From positions 8,142-72,141 of the forward strand of contig JAJDTA010000175.1 in NCBI GenBank assembly GCA_022827405.1: a DNA stretch of 64,000 bases, in the 5' to 3' direction. The notes under the pieces were generated by a model. That model was not told where the DNA came from. It searched no databases and saw only the letters and a program-made list of their open reading frames with translations. This document shows, one piece after another, positions 8,733-39,797 of this stretch. A program made the position numbers and the translations under genes. Within the stretch, counting starts at the first letter, position 1. Each line of letters begins with the position of its first letter. The DNA is from Acidimicrobiia bacterium (lineage in GTDB: Bacteria; Actinomycetota; Acidimicrobiia; Acidimicrobiales; Bin134).

Positions 8733-11110
<2,378 letters not shown>

Positions 11111-14407: not shown

Positions 14408-15402
14408 ATGGCGGAGAAGCTGTTCAGCTTGTCCTGTTGGTGGTCGGCGGTCACCAGCCGCACGGTGCCCGACTTCGACCGCATGACCAGCGACTGAGTG
14501 CTGGCGTGGTTCTTGTAGTAGTGGACGCCCCTGAGCAGGTCGCCGTCGGTAATCCCGGTGGCGGCGAAGAAGCAGTTGTCGCCTTGAACCAAGTCGTCGG
14601 CGGTGAGCACCTGAGTCACGTCCCGACCCAGTTTCTCCGCCCCCTTGCGCTCCTTGTCGTTGCGGGGCCAAAGCCGGCCCAGTTGCTCACCGCCCATGCA
14701 CTTGAGGGCGGCCGCAGAGATGACGCCCTCGGGGGTTCCACCGATGCCGAACAGTATGTCGGCCCCCGAGTCGGGCCCGGCGGTGGAGATGGCCCCGGCC
14801 ACGTCGCCGTCGGGAATGAGCCGGATGCGGGCGCCGGCCTCGCGCACCTCGGCGATCAGCTCCGAGTGGCGGTCGCGGTCGAGGATCACCGCGGTCACAT
14901 CCCGCACCGGCTCGCTCTTGGCCTCGGCCACCAGCTCGAGGTTGCGGGTGGGGGAGTTGTCCATCGAGATGCCATAGCCCACGCATTCGGGACCGTAGGC
15001 GATCTTCTCCATGTACACGCAGGGTCCGGGGTTGAACATGGTGCCCCGGTCGGATACCGCGATCACCGACAGGGCGTTGCCCCGGCCCAGCGAGGTGAGC
15101 GTGGTGCCGTCGATGGGGTCGACCGCGATGTCGCATTCGGGAGGCGTTCCGTCGCCGATGAGCTCCCCGTTGAAGAGCATGGGGGCTTCGTCCTTCTCGC
15201 CCTCGCCGATCACCACGATCCCGTCCATCGGCACGGTCCGCAGCAGCACCCGCATGGCCTCCACCGCGGCGCCGTCGGCCCCCTCCTTGTCACCCCGACC
15301 CATCCATCGGGAGGCGGCCAGAGCGGCGACTTCGGTCACTCGGACCAACTCCATCGCCAGGTTGCGGTCGGGGGTCTCGGGCGATGCATTCACGTTGCCC
15401 AA
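14395..15402 (-). CDS. glpX: Class II fructose-1,6-bisphosphatase
   Basis: [19 protein letters not shown] and GIGGTPEG motifs. Confidence 0.96.
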
Positions 15403-35824: not shown

Positions 35825-36966
35825 CCGAGCCCTCGGTCGCAATGGGCTGGGACAAGATCCGGGTCGCTATTCCCCGGGTGGTGGAGGCCGGGTTCGCCAT
35901 ATTCGTAGTCGTCATCCTGGGCGCAGTCATGACCGTCAAATCCGACGTGTTCCTGACCACGGGAAATCTCCAGAACATTTTGCTGCAGACCTCGTTCTTG
36001 GCCTGCGCGGCTTTCGGAATGACCCTGGTGATCATCACCGCCGAACTCGATCTGTCTCAAGGGTCGGTTTTGGCCCTGATCGGGGTCGTGGCGGCCGAGA
36101 CCATGGTCCGCAACAACAGCATCGTGCTCGGCCTGTTGGCTGGAGCGGGGGTGGGCATAGCCGCCGGGCTGTTCAACGGGCTGATCACCGCGGTGCTCAG
36201 AGTTCCCTCATTCATCACCACCCTGGGACTTCTGATCATGGCCCGGGGCTTGGCCCGAGAGATCACCGCGGGCAATACCGTGGGCAACCTACCCGGCGGC
36301 TGGAAGGCGTGGTGGAGCGGGGAGTTCATCGGGCTGCGAATGCCCATTTGGGTGGCGCTGGGTCTCGGTGTCGTCTACCACATCATCCTTCGCTATTCCC
36401 GCTTCGGATTGCGGATCTACGCGGTGGGAGGAAATGCCGAAGCAGCCCGCCGAGCCGGCATAAACGTCACTCGGGTGCGGGTCACCGTCTTCGTGCTGGG
36501 GGGCCTGGCCGTTGCCGTCGGCGGCTTCACCCTGTTGGGACGAGTCAACGTCGGCCAACCCAATGCCGCAGTGCTCACCGAGCTGTACGCGGTGGCCGCG
36601 GTGGTTCTAGGAGGCACTAATCTGTTCGGAGGTCGGGGGTCGATACCCCGCACGCTGGCCGGCGTGCTGCTGATCGGGGTGATTCGCAACAGCCTCAACC
36701 TGCTCAATGTGTCGTCCAACATGCAAGACGTGTGGCTCGGCGTCGTGTTCGTGCTGGCCATGACATCGCAGTTCTTGCGCAGGTACCTGGAGCGGTGGGC
36801 CAACCGAAGCGAGGACACCGCCATCGAAGTGGAAGTGGAGCACGAGCTCGACGAAGAGCGCCGTGCTATCGAGCTGGCCGAGCAATCGGCCCGCTCGCCA
36901 GACCTAGAACTCCAAGGCGTGGAGCCGGCCGAGCAATCGGCCACCTCGACGTCGGAGCAACCATAA
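35821..36966 (+). CDS. Sugar/nucleoside (RbsC-type) ABC permease
   Basis: LDLSQGS, PSFITTLG, GGNAEAARRAGI and AVVLGGT motifs. Confidence 0.92.
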   Translation: MTEPSVAMGWDKIRVAIPRVVEAGFAIFVVVILGAVMTVKSDVFLTTGNLQNILLQTSFLACAAFGMTLVIITAELDLSQGSVLALIGVVAAETMVRNNSIVLGLLAGAGVGIAAGLFNGLITAVLRVPSFITTLGLLIMARGLAREITAGNTVGNLPGGWKAWWSGEFIGLRMPIWVALGLGVVYHIILRYSRFGLRIYAVGGNAEAARRAGINVTRVRVTVFVLGGLAVAVGGFTLLGRVNVGQPNAAVLTELYAVAAVVLGGTNLFGGRGSIPRTLAGVLLIGVIRNSLNLLNVSSNMQDVWLGVVFVLAMTSQFLRRYLERWANRSEDTAIEVEVEHELDEERRAIELAEQSARSPDLELQGVEPAEQSATSTSEQP

Positions 36967-36984
36967 GGGAATTATATACGATAG

Positions 36985-37013
36985 TTGACGTGGCTGGTGG
37001 CGGCGGGTAGCTT
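36985..37013 (+). promoter_or_regulatory. Inward sigma70-type promoter at the left TIR
   Basis: TTGACG-17 nt-TAGCTT. Confidence 0.65.
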
Positions 37014-37019
37014 CGGGGC

Positions 37020-37092
37020 TGCCGTCAATCTGTCCAGACCTGGAGCCGGGTATCTCCTGGCTCCATTCGGCATGGTCTGGGCATTGACGGCA
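37020..37092 (+). ncRNA. Structured RNA or 5' leader (29-bp interrupted hairpin)
   Basis: Three helices of 9, 10 and 10 bp with two G-U pairs on the + strand; begins at the predicted TSS. Confidence 0.5.
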
Positions 37093-37125
37093 ATTGATAT
37101 CCGACTTCCCGAAGGGAGCCACCCA

Positions 37126-37440
37126 ATGACACCGAGAAACGCCGAGCTGCGAGAGATCGCTGCTTCCTGCAAAGACCTCACCGAGGCTGAGCGAGCCCAG
37201 TTCGCCGCCCAATACGCCTGCCAGCGCTTGGAGCCGGGACTGGCGACAGCGTTGAGCATGATGATGCTCGACAGGTTCTACATCGGCCAGGTGGGGATGG
37301 GCATCGCCAAGATCCTCACTTTCGGCGGCCTGGGCGTCTGGGCGCTCGTGGATCTGTTCACCATGCGGAACAAGGTCGCTGAGATGAACTTGGAGGCCAT
37401 GCGCCACGTCAAGGCCCACGTCGTTGAGATGCGCCCCTAG
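37126..37440 (+). CDS. TM2-domain small membrane protein (IS cargo)
   Basis: DRFYIGQVGMGIAKILTFGGLGVWALVD TM2 signature. Confidence 0.85.
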   Translation: MTPRNAELREIAASCKDLTEAERAQFAAQYACQRLEPGLATALSMMMLDRFYIGQVGMGIAKILTFGGLGVWALVDLFTMRNKVAEMNLEAMRHVKAHVVEMRP

Positions 37441-37531
37441 GGGGCCTGCGGCAGCGGCTAGAATCGCCCCTGAAAAGGCCAAACCCCCGGTGGACAAGAC
37501 CGGGGGCTGGAAGAAAGGTTGAAACAACCTA

Positions 37532-37831
37532 ATGACTAACCAAGAGACTAGCGCGTTGGACGCGCGCGCTCAAATACCGGAGGACGGCGAGCACTGGGTG
37601 GAACTGGAGCCGCGTCCCGCCGGCCCCGGCGAAGTCCAAATCCTCCGCCACTGGGCCTACACCGGCCCCACTCTCGCCGACGTGTATGAGCGGTTGGAGA
37701 ACCCGCCGCCCGAGCAGCCGATCCCGAAAGTCTCCGCTGTCGAAGACCCCGACAGGCCCGGCGTGCTCCAGGTCGAGTTCTCGATCCAGCTCTCCGAGGA
37801 TGAGTGGGAGGCCGCCTTCGGCAGCAACTAG
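37532..37831 (+). CDS. Hypothetical acidic Pro-rich protein (IS cargo)
   Basis: 99-aa ORF with TAGAAT -10 box at 37459 and hairpin leader; stop overlaps the transposase stop. Confidence 0.6.
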   Translation: MTNQETSALDARAQIPEDGEHWVELEPRPAGPGEVQILRHWAYTGPTLADVYERLENPPPEQPIPKVSAVEDPDRPGVLQVEFSIQLSEDEWEAAFGSN

Positions 37832-38721
37832 GGGGCGGTGAGGTCGGTGTAGCGGAGGCGCTTGCCGACCATCCCGCAGGCCACCCAGCGCAGCGACGTG
37901 GCCTCGTTCACCCTGGCCTCAACCTCCGAGCAGTAGCGGTGCAGGTGCTTGTCCGACATCCAGTGGTAGGTGCCGATGTAGGAGCGCTTGAGCAGCGCCC
38001 ACACGCCCTCGATCCGGTTCGTGGAGGCCAGGCCCCTCCGGTACTCGCCGCGGCCGTGGGCGACCCGCCCGTGGCGGAACCCCAGCCTGCCGAGCGGCCC
38101 GTAGACCGGGGCCTCGTCGGTGAACACGTCAGCTCCCCGCCGCACCCTCGACGACACGAACCCGGCGGCGGTGGCACCGTCCACGCTTCCCACCGCCTCC
38201 AGCGACACCGACCCGGTGTGCCGATCAGCCGCGCCCATCACCGGGGCCTTCCCCGACGGGCCACGCCCAGACCCCTTCTTACCACGGTGGCGATTCTTGT
38301 TCTTCCCGCCGACATAGGTCTCGTCGATCTCGACCGGGCCGACCATGAGCGGATCGTCGCCGTCGGCCCACGCCTGGCGGATGCGATGGCCGAGATGCCA
38401 TGCCGACTTCTGGGTGATCCCCAAATGGCGGCCCAGGCTCACCGACGACACGCCTTTGGGCGACTGGGAGAGCAGGTAGACGGCCAGCAGCCACGTCTGA
38501 GCGCCCAGCTTGCTCGACTCCATCACCGACCCCTTCCGCCACGAGAAGTAGGAGCGGCACGACCCGCACCACCAGTCCATCGACTGGTGCTTGGACTCCA
38601 CCACCCGCTCGCCCGACCCGCAGTCGATACACCGCACCCCGTCGGGCCAGCGCTGCTCGACGAACCAGCGGCGGGCCGCTTCGTCGTCCGGGTACTTCCT
38701 CGCAAGCTCGATCAGGTTCAT
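37828..38721 (-). CDS. IS1595-family DDE transposase
   Basis: CxxC...CxxC Zn ribbon; VEIDETY, VFTDE and TNRIEGVW motifs. Confidence 0.93.
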   Translation of the reverse strand: MNLIELARKYPDDEAARRWFVEQRWPDGVRCIDCGSGERVVESKHQSMDWWCGSCRSYFSWRKGSVMESSKLGAQTWLLAVYLLSQSPKGVSSVSLGRHLGITQKSAWHLGHRIRQAWADGDDPLMVGPVEIDETYVGGKNKNRHRGKKGSGRGPSGKAPVMGAADRHTGSVSLEAVGSVDGATAAGFVSSRVRRGADVFTDEAPVYGPLGRLGFRHGRVAHGRGEYRRGLASTNRIEGVWALLKRSYIGTYHWMSDKHLHRYCSEVEARVNEATSLRWVACGMVGKRLRYTDLTAP

Positions 38722-38727
38722 GCCCAA

Positions 38728-38756
38728 ACCCTAGTCCCGACCCGCCAGCCTGTCAA
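38728..38756 (-). promoter_or_regulatory. Transposase promoter at the right TIR (leaderless)
   Basis: TTGACA-17 nt-TAGGGT, 6 nt before the ATG at 38721. Confidence 0.7.
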
Positions 38757-38801
38757 GTTATGTATATAGTTCCCAACCATAAACACCCGGAGGGGAGCAC
38801 A

Positions 38802-39797
38802 ATGAAAACCAAGAATCTGTTGTTCAAGCTGCTGGCGCTGCTATTGGCCCTTGGGCTGGTGGCATCGGCGTGCGGCAACGACGATGACGACGACACCGCG
38901 TCGGGAGACGGGGGTTGTGAGGAGACCTACGAGGTGCGGTATGCCAACTTGGCCACCTTCATCTTGTATTTCCGCGACCTCGAAGCTGGTCTGCGCGACT
39001 TCGGTGCCGGTAACTGCTGGAACTTCGTCGCCGCTGACGCCGCCTACGTGATCGAAGACCAAGTGGCTCAGATCGAGGACTTCGTAACCCAAGGCGTCGA
39101 CCTGATCATCGCCTCGCCGGGCGACCGCCAAGCGCTCATTCCCGCTTATGAAGCCGCCGCGGCCGCCGGCATTCCCATGTTGTCCACCGGCGACAGCGTG
39201 CAGGAGGCTGCCCCGGAGATCGGCTTCATCGGTACCGACTGGGGCGTTGAGGGCACCAAGCAGACCGAGTGGATGGTCGAACAGCTCGGCGGATCGGGCA
39301 AGATCGCCCGTATCGGTGGCCCGGGCGCCAGCGAGTACGTGGAGAAGCGCCGCGAGGGCTTCGAGCACACCATGGAGAACAACCCCGGTATCGAGGTGGT
39401 GTTCAACCAGAGCGCCAACAGCTTCACCGCCGAAGAGGGCCTCCGTTTGGCCCAGGACGCGTTGACCGCCAATCCCGATCTCGACGGAATCTGGGCAGAC
39501 AGCGATGCCCTGGCTCTGGGCGCCGCCACCGCGGTGGAAGAGGCGGGCATCGCCCACGCCGACATCCTCATCAGCGGAACCGACGGCGAGCCGGCGGTAT
39601 TCGATCAGATCCGGGCCGGATCCGGCGTGGACATGACTATTGCCTTGCGGGGCTATCAGTGGGGTTGGCAGACCGCCGAGGTCGCCCACCAGTACCTAAC
39701 CACCGGCAGCACCGGCCAGGGCTATTTCATCCAGGCGCCCACCTTCGTGGTGGATGCCGACACCATTGAAGGCATGACCAACGCCGATCTCCGCTAG
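38802..39797 (+). CDS. Sugar (RbsB-type) ABC substrate-binding lipoprotein
   Basis: Lipobox LVASAC; periplasmic-binding-protein type I pattern; GGGGAG RBS. Confidence 0.9.
   Translation: MKTKNLLFKLLALLLALGLVASACGNDDDDDTASGDGGCEETYEVRYANLATFILYFRDLEAGLRDFGAGNCWNFVAADAAYVIEDQVAQIEDFVTQGVDLIIASPGDRQALIPAYEAAAAAGIPMLSTGDSVQEAAPEIGFIGTDWGVEGTKQTEWMVEQLGGSGKIARIGGPGASEYVEKRREGFEHTMENNPGIEVVFNQSANSFTAEEGLRLAQDALTANPDLDGIWADSDALALGAATAVEEAGIAHADILISGTDGEPAVFDQIRAGSGVDMTIALRGYQWGWQTAEVAHQYLTTGSTGQGYFIQAPTFVVDADTIEGMTNADLR

What the first reader, a model, noticed from the sequence alone, without database searches (positions are those of the whole stretch)
36985..37128. Left-TIR promoter positioned to start a highly structured RNA ahead of the TM2 gene (best candidate for a new system)
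Seen: both ends hold mirror promoters (left TTGACG-17-TAGCTT, right TTGACA-17-TAGGGT). The left predicted TSS (~37020) coincides with the first base of a 73-nt hairpin: 37020-28/37084-92, 37031-40/37074-83 and 37041-50/37056-65, with an 8-nt bulge. Both non-Watson-Crick pairs are G-U on the transcribed strand. A small TCCC-GAA-GGGA hairpin then covers the TM2 RBS. Inference: an IS-encoded ncRNA or regulatory leader, controlling either a membrane effector or the transposase. I know of no such RNA described for IS1595.
Basis: partly seen in the sequence, partly recalled or inferred. Interest (0 to 1): 0.75.

Follow-up and report, generated by a model that had tools for sequence, protein, structure and literature searches.

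The report
Structured mRNA leader inside transporter IS
The hairpin is real and belongs to an uncatalogued family of folded mRNA leaders that sit in front of membrane and secreted protein genes in this bacterial genus, one of which has been picked up as cargo by a jumping gene.

Summary
The 73-nt hairpin sits at exactly the stated coordinates (MFE -59.9 kcal/mol, z -5.6). It lies 53 nt inside the left end of an 1808-bp IS1595-family transporter IS (36967-38774), which has an 8-bp target duplication and four matching empty sites in sister genomes.

The RNA is not specific to IS1595. The unit has four parts: a -10 hexamer, a 5'-terminal hairpin (P1-P2-P3), a CA-rich linker, and a Shine-Dalgarno box. 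A core model finds this unit at 78 sites in 28 of 40 same-genus genomes. It finds none in 150 other genomes of the class, and Rfam has no match.

Only 1 of 61 related transposase loci carries the unit, so it follows the downstream gene rather than the transposase. At least four complete IS1595 transporter ISs carry it in front of their cargo. Downstream genes are mostly envelope proteins (26 of 33 against 21 of 122 neighbouring ORFs).

Two mutually exclusive pairings both show compensatory changes:
- the hairpin;
- a 12-bp pairing between the 3' arm of P3 plus the bulge (GGCTCCCTTCGG) and the SD box (CCGAAGGGAGCC).

My best reading is a cis-acting translational leader or switch. In this copy the hairpin state is favoured by about 15 kcal/mol, so the SD should be free. 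There are no expression data. I judge it a new RNA motif of a known kind.

The parts
36959..36966 (.). Left copy of the 8-bp target-site duplication AACCATAA. It contains the TAA stop of the upstream ABC permease gene.
   Evidence: Four same-genus genomes (L155, L157, L158, L159) carry the uninterrupted site, with a single copy.
36967..36989 (+). Terminal inverted repeat at the transposase-distal end (GGGAATTATATACGATAGTTGAC).
   Evidence: alignment with the reverse complement of 38752-38774. A related TIR motif occurs in L014, L135 and L183.
36985..37013 (+). Predicted inward-facing promoter: TTGACG (36985-90), 17 nt, TAGCTT (37008-13). It mirrors the transposase promoter at the other end.
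   Evidence: Sequence. A TANNNT hexamer lies 5-7 nt upstream of P1 in 8 of 8 leaders. The E. coli-type scan does not call it. No TSS data.
37020..37092 (+). 5'-terminal hairpin of the leader. P1 is 37020-28/37084-92, P2 is 37031-40/37074-83, P3 is 37041-50/37056-65, and the bulge is 37066-73.
   Evidence: fold, z -5.57; covariation, with 93.1% of cells paired and 8 of 29 pairs changed on both sides.
37059..37070 (+). Anti-SD box GGCTCCATTCGG (3' arm of P3 plus the start of the bulge). It is complementary to the SD box in 11 of 12 positions here.
37093..37108 (+). Single-stranded CA-rich linker. The conserved pattern is AAnnGA....CGAC.
   Evidence: Alignments A7 and A8.
37109..37120 (+). SD box CCGAAGGGAGCC. 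The GGAG core lies 7-8 nt before the ATG.
37126..37440 (+). Cargo gene 1: a 104-aa TM2-domain membrane protein.
   Evidence: Pfam PF05154, E 3.2e-10. Homologues behind the same leader: L128/L121 at 54% identity and L143 at 34%.
37532..37831 (+). Cargo ORF 2 (99 aa), of no known family. Its stop overlaps the transposase stop.
   Evidence: No PADLOC, PHROGs or Atlas hit. That it is a real gene is not shown.
37828..38727 (-). IS1595-family transposase (299 aa counted from the TTG). The ATG at 38721 lies 6 nt after the -10 hexamer.
   Evidence: PF12762, E 5.7e-36, and PF12760, E 2.8e-5.
38752..38774 (-). Terminal inverted repeat at the transposase-proximal end. It contains the -35 of the transposase promoter.
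38775..38782 (.). Right copy of the target-site duplication AACCATAA.

Best explanation
The hairpin is the 5' domain of a cis-acting leader on the mRNA of the IS's cargo genes (TM2, and possibly ORF99). It is one copy of a portable expression module: a -10 hexamer, a 5'-terminal P1-P2-P3 hairpin, a CA-rich linker, an SD box and a start codon.

How it would work. Step 1 (predicted): transcription starts at about 37020 from the promoter built into the left inverted repeat. Step 2 (shown by folding): the first 73 nt fold into a very stable hairpin. Step 3 (shown by sequence and covariation): the 3' arm of P3 plus the bulge (GGCTCCaTTCGG) is the complement of the SD box (CCGAAGGGAGCC). The RNA therefore has two exclusive states. 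In one, the hairpin forms and the SD is free, so translation is on; a paired 5' end may also protect against 5'-end-dependent RNases. In the other, the anti-SD pairs with the SD and translation is off.

In this copy the on state is favoured by about 15 kcal/mol, so the cargo is probably expressed constitutively. In other family members the two states are close in energy or reversed, so the family as a whole looks like a translational switch. What triggers the switch is unknown.

The module belongs to the genus's envelope-protein genes. It came into the IS with the cargo, or by recombination within the leader. It is not part of the transposition machinery.
For: Fold: -59.9 kcal/mol, z -5.57, better than the opposite strand.

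Homologues outside this IS were found by BLAST, by covariance model R1 and by core model R2 (93 matches, which are 78 distinct sites, in 28 of 40 same-genus genomes).

Hairpin covariation, on 7 leaders of the simple-hairpin type: 93.1% of cells paired against 85.2% in shuffles; 8 of 29 pairs changed on both sides; score 0.282 against 0.126, with 0 of 500 shuffles reaching it; slid controls pair 25-49%. More distant members keep P1 and P2 with unrelated sequences, for example L144, L146, L072, L097 and L090.

Anti-SD:SD pairing, on 27 leaders: 94.8% paired; 4 of 12 pairs changed on both sides (8 cells against 2.8 in shuffles, reached by 1 of 500); score 0.198 against 0.158, 0 of 500. C at anti-SD position 4 occurs only with G at SD position 9 (4 of 4). 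A at SD position 10 occurs only with T at anti-SD position 3 (2 of 2).

Strand: in the anti-SD:SD helix there are 26 G-U cells against 7 A-C cells.

Energies: the off state minus the on state ranges from -10.3 to +14.9 kcal/mol over 12 leaders, and is +14.9 for the window.

Promoter: TANNNT lies 5-7 nt before P1 in 8 of 8 leaders.

Gene link: 33 of 38 sites are followed within 2-11 nt by an ORF of at least 60 aa. Of these, 26 of 33 have an N-terminal hydrophobic segment, against 21 of 122 neighbouring ORFs.

Not tied to the transposase: 1 of 61 loci with related transposases has it.
Against: - No transcript data. The TSS, the RNA itself and any switching are all inferred. No RNA run was listed.
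- In the window's own copy the off state is 15 kcal/mol worse and the anti-SD has a mismatch (A at position 7), so this copy may never switch.
- I located the anti-SD and SD boxes by fuzzy match to two complementary consensus 12-mers. The high percentage paired is therefore partly built in, and only the double changes are informative. Those are few (8 cells) and come from related sequences.
- I chose the start points of the A8 sequences at P1.
- The G-U excess over A-C in the hairpin itself is weak (15 against 10).
- ViennaRNA cannot score a pseudoknot in which P1 and P2 coexist with the anti-SD:SD pairing, so 'mutually exclusive' is an assumption.
- I inspected only part of the 78 R2 sites (those with loci).
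Confidence: 0.6

Rival explanations
1. It is only an mRNA-stabilising or insulating 5' stem-loop. The hairpin protects the cargo transcript's 5' end and does nothing else. The anti-SD/SD complementarity would then be a by-product of an SD-like sequence in P3.
For: The predicted TSS falls on the first paired base here. The -10 spacing is the same in 8 of 8 leaders. In the window the hairpin state wins by 14.9 kcal/mol.
Against: The 12-nt complementarity is kept through compensatory changes. In G229, G078 and G291b the SD-sequestered state is the more stable one. The linker and SD box are conserved as well as the stem.
Confidence: 0.17
2. It is a DNA-level site: a recombination or capture site (attC-like or a cruciform) that lets cargo genes be exchanged between elements.
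For: Leader similarity does not follow cargo similarity. L014 and L128 leaders are 91.8% identical in front of unrelated genes. The window and L128 both carry TM2 (54% aa identity), yet their leaders are 62.4% identical. Many copies lie near transposases or integrases, and 10 of 45 loci have an IS1595 transposase gene or fragment nearby.
Against: No integron integrase scores over the cut-off in 5 of 5 genomes tested. Copies are scattered singly, not in arrays. The fixed distance to a start codon, the SD complementarity and the G-U excess on the sense strand fit RNA. Ordinary homologous recombination within a conserved leader would explain the shuffling.
Confidence: 0.07
3. It is an IS-encoded small RNA, or the start of an antisense transcript, that controls the transposase.
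For: The cargo transcription unit converges on the transposase gene and their stops overlap, so read-through would be antisense to the transposase mRNA.
Against: No terminator-like site follows the hairpin. It runs directly into an SD and an ORF. It is absent from 60 of 61 related transposase loci. In L014, L135, L138 and L183 the leader and cargo point the same way as the transposase, so antisense geometry is not conserved.
Confidence: 0.05
4. It is a selfish or neutral dispersed repeat (REP- or MITE-like) with no function of its own.
For: Multi-copy: 1-11 sites per genome, patchy across the genus.
Against: It has no terminal repeats or target duplications of its own. It always faces an ORF (33 of 38). 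Compensatory changes occur in two helices. A promoter hexamer is conserved.
Confidence: 0.04

Closest known systems
Transporter IS (tIS) of the IS1595 family
   Same: DDE_Tnp_IS1595 transposase with an N-terminal zinc ribbon, short terminal inverted repeats, an 8-bp target duplication, and passenger genes inside the IS. [quoted passage not shown]
   Different: I found nothing in print about a structured leader on tIS cargo. Here the cargo is driven from the mirror copy of the transposase promoter in the distal inverted repeat and reads towards the transposase gene.
SD-sequestering cis-regulatory leaders (RNA thermometers such as ROSE and fourU, and riboswitch expression platforms)
   Same: An anti-SD segment can pair with the ribosome-binding site, and an alternative upstream helix competes for that segment.
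   Different: No Rfam family matches at E up to 10 in the window or up to 1 in 13 member loci. The competitor is a 29-bp 5'-terminal hairpin. Architecture varies between a simple hairpin and a three-way junction. No ligand pocket or temperature-sensitive weak helix is evident. The trigger is unknown.
IS-borne 5'-UTR structures that limit transposase translation (ISPpu9, PMC8450116, listing and abstract only; IS10 and IS50 fold-back inhibition, recalled)
   Same: A mobile element carries an mRNA structure near its end that governs access to an RBS.
   Different: Here the regulated gene is cargo, not the transposase. The transposase itself appears to be leaderless. The RNA is shared with genes that have no IS1595 transposase nearby.
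5'-terminal stabiliser hairpins (ompA-type; recalled, not from a call)
   Same: A stem-loop begins at or next to the first transcribed base.
   Different: This family also has conserved complementarity to its own SD.
Integron attC sites
   Same: An imperfect palindrome of about 70-130 nt, conserved in structure more than in sequence, next to diverse small genes in mobile contexts.
   Different: No integron integrase and no cassette arrays. It lies upstream of the gene and includes the gene's SD and promoter. Wobble pairs favour the sense strand.

Membership tests
IS1595 family (transporter IS) | DDE transposase of the ISXO2/IS1595 type with an N-terminal zinc ribbon | tested here: met
   PF12762, E 5.7e-36, and PF12760, E 2.8e-5.
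IS1595 family (transporter IS) | Terminal inverted repeats and an 8-bp target-site duplication | tested here: met
   TIRs of about 23 bp. AACCATAA flanks both ends. Four empty sites in sister genomes.
IS1595 family (transporter IS) | Passenger gene(s) between the inverted repeats | tested here: met
   The TM2 gene and ORF99 lie inside 36967-38774.
Any Rfam 15 family | Match to a curated covariance model | tested here: not met
   Nothing overlaps 37015-37131 at E up to 10. Nothing falls at the leader in 13 member loci at E up to 1.
Riboswitch | A conserved ligand-binding core whose folding controls an expression platform | tested here: inconclusive
   An expression-platform-like anti-SD/SD pair is present. 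No conserved junction or pocket was identified, and members differ in architecture. Ligand binding cannot be tested here.
RNA thermometer | A weak, meltable helix over the SD | tested here: not met
   The anti-SD:SD helix is 12 bp and G+C-rich. No ROSE or fourU hit appears in Rfam. A temperature response cannot be tested here.
Integron attC | An associated IntI integrase and cassette arrays | tested here: not met
   TIGR02249 scores over its cut-off in 0 of 5 genomes. Sites are dispersed.
REP / MITE | Own terminal repeats or target duplication, and a position independent of gene starts | tested here: not met
   33 of 38 sites are followed by an ORF of at least 60 aa within 2-11 nt. No flanking repeats were seen in the loci inspected.
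Type I toxin-antitoxin mRNA leader | A small hydrophobic toxin plus an overlapping antisense RNA | not tested
   Downstream proteins range from 65 to more than 490 aa and are mostly secreted or lipoproteins. No antisense RNA was sought.

The most novel reading that the evidence does not exclude
The leader is an orphan RNA switch that places a large share of this genus's secretome under one post-transcriptional signal. The set includes lipoproteins, signal-peptide proteins, and small membrane proteins such as TM2. The model finds up to 11 sites per genome and 78 in 28 genomes. IS1595 transporter ISs would then use the same promoter-leader cassette as a plug-in expression and cargo-swapping module. 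In that case mobile cargo is automatically wired into the host's envelope regulon, and new cargo is acquired by recombination within the leader.
Probability: 0.25. Interest if true: 0.75.

Novelty: new variant of a known kind. Interest (0 to 1): 0.55.

Why it matters
A structured leader with compensatory changes in two competing helices, confined to one lineage and tied to envelope-protein genes, is a good candidate for a new regulatory RNA class whose signal is still unknown.

For mobile-element biology, it shows a transporter IS whose cargo carries a complete host-type expression cassette fused to the IS's own end promoter. It also shows the same cassette recurring in at least four complete IS1595 elements with different cargo. 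That pattern suggests how such ISs acquire and express passengers.

The hosts appear to be uncultivated symbionts: the named relatives are mostly sponge-associated MAGs. The practical value is therefore a testable RNA motif rather than an immediate phenotype.

Tried and rejected
- RNA-seq evidence: no RNA holder was listed for 36900-37900.
- Exact 24-base pattern in metagenome contigs: 4 stretches. On inspection all were unrelated perfect palindromes without P1, P2 or the linker. In viral contigs: 0.
- BLAST of 36967-37440: no match in phages. In plasmids only the TM2 coding part matched, in 2 Arthrobacter plasmids, and the leader did not.
- The order-wide DNA search gave 26 of 401 genomes at E up to 0.01. 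Most of those were short G+C-rich matches to the TIR/promoter stretch, which I did not count as leaders.
- MAFFT alignments A1, A5 and A6, and the CM-made alignments A3 and A4, mis-register the 5' strands of P1 and P2 when simple-hairpin and three-way members are mixed. I did not use them for counts. RNAalifold on A5 recovered only the anti-SD:SD helix.
- Weak R1 hits L112, L113, L115, L116, L122, L127, L145 and L150 lack the boxes, so I dropped them. The weak hits L033 and L018 were not inspected.
- PADLOC: 0 of 7 cargo or neighbouring proteins matched. PHROGs: only TM2 matched, to families of unknown function. The Atlas gave nothing for ORF99.
- The upstream in-frame ATGs inside the hairpin, and the 151-aa ORF from the TTG at 36985, were rejected as the real start. 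The homologues start at the equivalent of 37126, and the upstream ATG is not at a conserved position (read).
- Slips: one search used the wrong frame coordinates and exceeded the length limit. Both were corrected.

Full report
THE OBSERVATION

Folding 37015-37131 on the + strand gives helices 37020-28/37084-92, 37031-40/37074-83 and 37041-50/37056-65, with an 8-nt bulge at 37066-73 and a small hairpin over the RBS. The energy is -59.9 kcal/mol and z is -5.57; 0 of 200 dinucleotide shuffles fold as well. The opposite strand folds less well (-53.2, z -3.83). Both hexamer pairs read as described. The tool's E. coli-type scan calls no promoter or terminator anywhere in 36800-38900, because the -10 hexamers TAGCTT and TAGGGT match TATAAT at only 3 of 6 positions. 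They do fit TANNNT, which I recall as the usual actinobacterial -10. That recollection comes from no call.

THE ELEMENT

The hairpin lies 53 nt inside the left end of an IS spanning 36967-38774 (1808 bp).
- It has inverted repeats of about 23 bp and an 8-bp direct repeat, AACCATAA, on both sides.
- Four same-genus genomes (L155 at 96% flank identity, plus L157, L158 and L159) carry the uninterrupted site. There the permease stop codon runs straight into the RBS of the next gene.
- The transposase (37828-38727, minus strand) has the IS1595 DDE domain and zinc ribbon.
- The cargo on the + strand is a 104-aa TM2-domain protein (37126-37440) and a 99-aa ORF of no known family.
- Two contig ends elsewhere in the assembly match the two IS ends at 100%, so there are at least two copies.

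This is a transporter IS, a category already described for IS1595 (TnCentral preprint, passage read).

THE RNA IS NOT PRIVATE TO THIS IS

None of the 61 loci encoding related transposases (34-74% identity) encodes the TM2 protein or ORF99. BLAST of the left end, however, found homologues of the hairpin's 3' half, the linker and the RBS in other places:
- inside another IS1595 element (L014);
- on another contig of the same genome (L005/L140);
- in three further genomes of the order.

A covariance model built from four copies (R1) then found more in the same genus, including two in front of TM2 homologues (L128/L121 at 54% identity, L143 at 34%). A short core model running from the anti-SD box to the SD box (R2) gave the widest census:
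- 93 matches at E up to 0.001 in 28 of 40 genomes of the genus. Fifteen are the reverse strand of the same site, which leaves 78 distinct sites, 1-11 per genome.
- No match in the 150 other genomes sampled across the class; the only genome with a match was the window's own.
- The exact 24-base box pattern occurs in 6 of 401 genomes of the order.

Rfam has nothing at these positions. Phage and plasmid collections do not hold the leader. I inspected only those R2 sites for which loci were returned.

ANATOMY AND CONSERVATION

Every well-preserved member has five parts in order:
1. a TANNNT hexamer ending 5-7 nt before the first paired base (8 of 8 examined; two of these are close homologues of each other);
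2. an outer helix P1 and a middle helix P2, whose sequences differ widely between members;
3. an apical helix P3, whose 3' arm plus the following bulge reads GGCTCCCTTCGG;
4. a linker of about 14 nt, CA-rich and conserved;
5. the box CCGAAGGGAGCC, followed 3-9 nt later by a start codon.

Some members insert an extra hairpin and form a three-way junction.

Hairpin counts. I used the seven simple-hairpin leaders that align cleanly (7 of the 27 known at that point; I chose the 5' ends at P1). The three helices are 93.1% paired against 85.2% in shuffles. Eight of 29 pairs change on both sides (18 cells against 6.0). The covariation score is 0.282 against 0.126, and 0 of 500 shuffles reach it. Sliding the partners drops pairing to 25-49%. 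One G-U pair in P3 is invariant in 7 of 7.

The second pairing. The two boxes are exact complements of each other. Over 27 leaders the 12-bp pairing is 94.8% kept, with double changes at 4 of 12 positions (8 cells against 2.8 in shuffles; score 0.198 against 0.158, 0 of 500). For example, C at anti-SD position 4 appears only with G at SD position 9 (4 of 4), and L144 changes two further pairs in concert. I found the boxes by similarity to the two consensus words. The percentage paired is therefore partly built in, and the double changes carry the weight. G-U outnumbers A-C by 26 to 7 in this helix and by 15 to 10 in the hairpin. That favours the sense strand, weakly in the hairpin.

WHAT IT TRAVELS WITH

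Only 1 of 61 loci with related transposases carries the leader. Two further hits of 17-18 bits were not inspected. The leader is nevertheless over-represented in IS1595 transporter ISs of this lineage:
- It lies inside complete elements with intact inverted repeats in the window, in L014, and in L135 and L138.
- It lies next to transposase genes or fragments in L140, L137, L142, L183, L171 and L184.
- That makes 10 of 45 loci for which I had flanks of 1.5 kb or more.

In L014, L135, L138 and L183 the order is transposase, then leader, then cargo, all in one direction. Only in the window is the module inverted and fused to the distal inverted repeat.

Other copies sit near ISL3, IS110, TnpB or phage-integrase genes, or next to housekeeping genes.

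The downstream genes are unrelated to one another but alike in kind. Of 38 sites with at least 11 of 12 box pairs, 33 have an ORF of at least 60 aa starting 2-11 nt after the box. Of these, 26 have a hydrophobic 17-mer in the first 70 residues and 30 have one somewhere. The figures for neighbouring ORFs are 21 and 32 of 122. Many are lipoproteins or signal-peptide proteins.

Leader similarity does not follow cargo similarity. The L014 and L128 leaders are 91.8% identical in front of unrelated genes. The window and L128, both with TM2, share 62.4%. Leaders have therefore been exchanged or homogenised.

MECHANISM

Shown: the fold, its conservation, the complementarity to the SD, and the gene association.

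Inferred:
- Transcription starts at about 37020 from the promoter in the inverted repeat. This promoter mirrors the transposase promoter at the other end, where the ATG follows the -10 by 6 nt, which suggests a leaderless transposase mRNA.
- The hairpin forms first and locks the anti-SD into P3, leaving the SD free.
- If the hairpin is opened or cut, the anti-SD can close over the SD.

Constrained folding puts the SD-sequestered state 14.9 kcal/mol above the SD-free state in the window. Over 12 members the difference runs from -10.3 to +14.9. The family looks bistable, while this copy looks locked on. A paired 5' end may also stabilise the message (recalled analogy with ompA). The trigger for the switch is unknown. 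A pseudoknot that keeps P1 and P2 together with the box pairing was not evaluated.

RIVALS

- A pure stabiliser hairpin fits the window's energetics but does not explain the compensatory changes in the box pairing.
- A DNA-level capture site would explain the leader shuffling and the mobile contexts. Against it: no integron integrase in 5 of 5 genomes, scattered single copies, a fixed spacing to start codons, and the sense-strand wobble bias.
- A transposase-directed sRNA is unlikely, because the orientation relative to the transposase is not conserved and no terminator follows the hairpin.
- A neutral repeat is unlikely given the constant position and orientation before ORFs.

COMPARISON AND NOVELTY

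The IS itself is an ordinary member of a known kind. The leader works like known SD-sequestering leaders, but it matches no catalogued family. My literature searches found no description of such an RNA on IS1595 cargo or in Acidimicrobiia: IS1595 with 'passenger', with 'ISNwi1', and with 'untranslated region' or 'secondary structure'; Acidimicrobiia with 'RNA motif' or 'Shine-Dalgarno'; and 'Poriferisocius'. These searches cover open-access text only, and I opened no supplements. I rate it a new variant of a known kind.

LIMITS

- There are no expression data.
- The source genome is a 237-contig assembly with 5.3% contamination.
- The alignments were anchored by hand.
- The sequences are related, so shuffle counts overstate significance.
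- E-values from the short-calibrated models are rough.

Noticed in passing
window 38719-38756 (minus strand): The transposase promoter lies in the right inverted repeat: TTGACA, 17 nt, TAGGGT. The ATG at 38721 follows the -10 by only 6 nt, which suggests a leaderless transposase mRNA. L183 has the same layout (TTGACA ... TACAGT, 6 nt, ATG).
   Followed up: partly
window 36959-36966 and 38775-38805: The IS inserted exactly between the stop codon of an ABC permease gene and the RBS of the following solute-binding-protein gene. This splits what is a contiguous operon in four sister genomes. The target duplication regenerates the permease stop codon.
   Followed up: yes
G000:C14:1-103 and G000:C200:6277-6413 (L003, L002): Two contig ends match the IS ends at 100%, so at least one more copy exists. 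The C14 contig breaks inside the hairpin, at the equivalent of window position 37069.
   Followed up: partly
window 37484-37506: A strong stem-loop (CCCCCGG ... CCGGGGG) lies between the TM2 gene and ORF99, with no T run. Rfam gives only a chance-level c-di-GMP-I-GGC hit over it (13.7 bits, E 8.4).
   Followed up: no
window 37828-37831: ORF99 and the transposase converge and their stop codons overlap. Read-through of either transcript would be antisense to the other.
   Followed up: no
L096:1568-1590 (same place as L130 about 6130): One degenerate leader copy is followed by an ATG and then a run of 15 C. This could be a slippage-prone tract or an assembly artefact.
   Followed up: no
L163, L167, L168, L169, L172, L174, L176, L177, L179 (downstream ORFs): Many leader-preceded genes encode long secreted proteins. 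They share a signal peptide ending in A-x-A, followed by H-E, H-Q or H-D and threonine-rich repeats. They look like one paralogous family.
   Followed up: no
L138:3621-7837: A 4.2-kb IS1595 transporter IS with perfect 27-bp inverted repeats carries a nested IS4-type transposase gene (PF13701) between its own transposase and the leader-cargo unit.
   Followed up: partly
L009-L069 (record titles): Relatives of this transposase at 40-53% identity occur in MAGs titled Dehalococcoidia, Latescibacterota, Binatia, Entotheonella, Rhodobacterales and Arenicellales. This points to spread of the IS lineage across phyla that share a habitat.
   Followed up: no
L133:7930-8053 and 9334-9464; L131:6609-6737 and 14858-14986: A sub-family of leaders precedes small membrane proteins that all begin MTTTPHPATIGPMT. 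Two pairs lie within 1.4 kb and 8 kb of each other, among ISL3 and rve transposase genes.
   Followed up: partly
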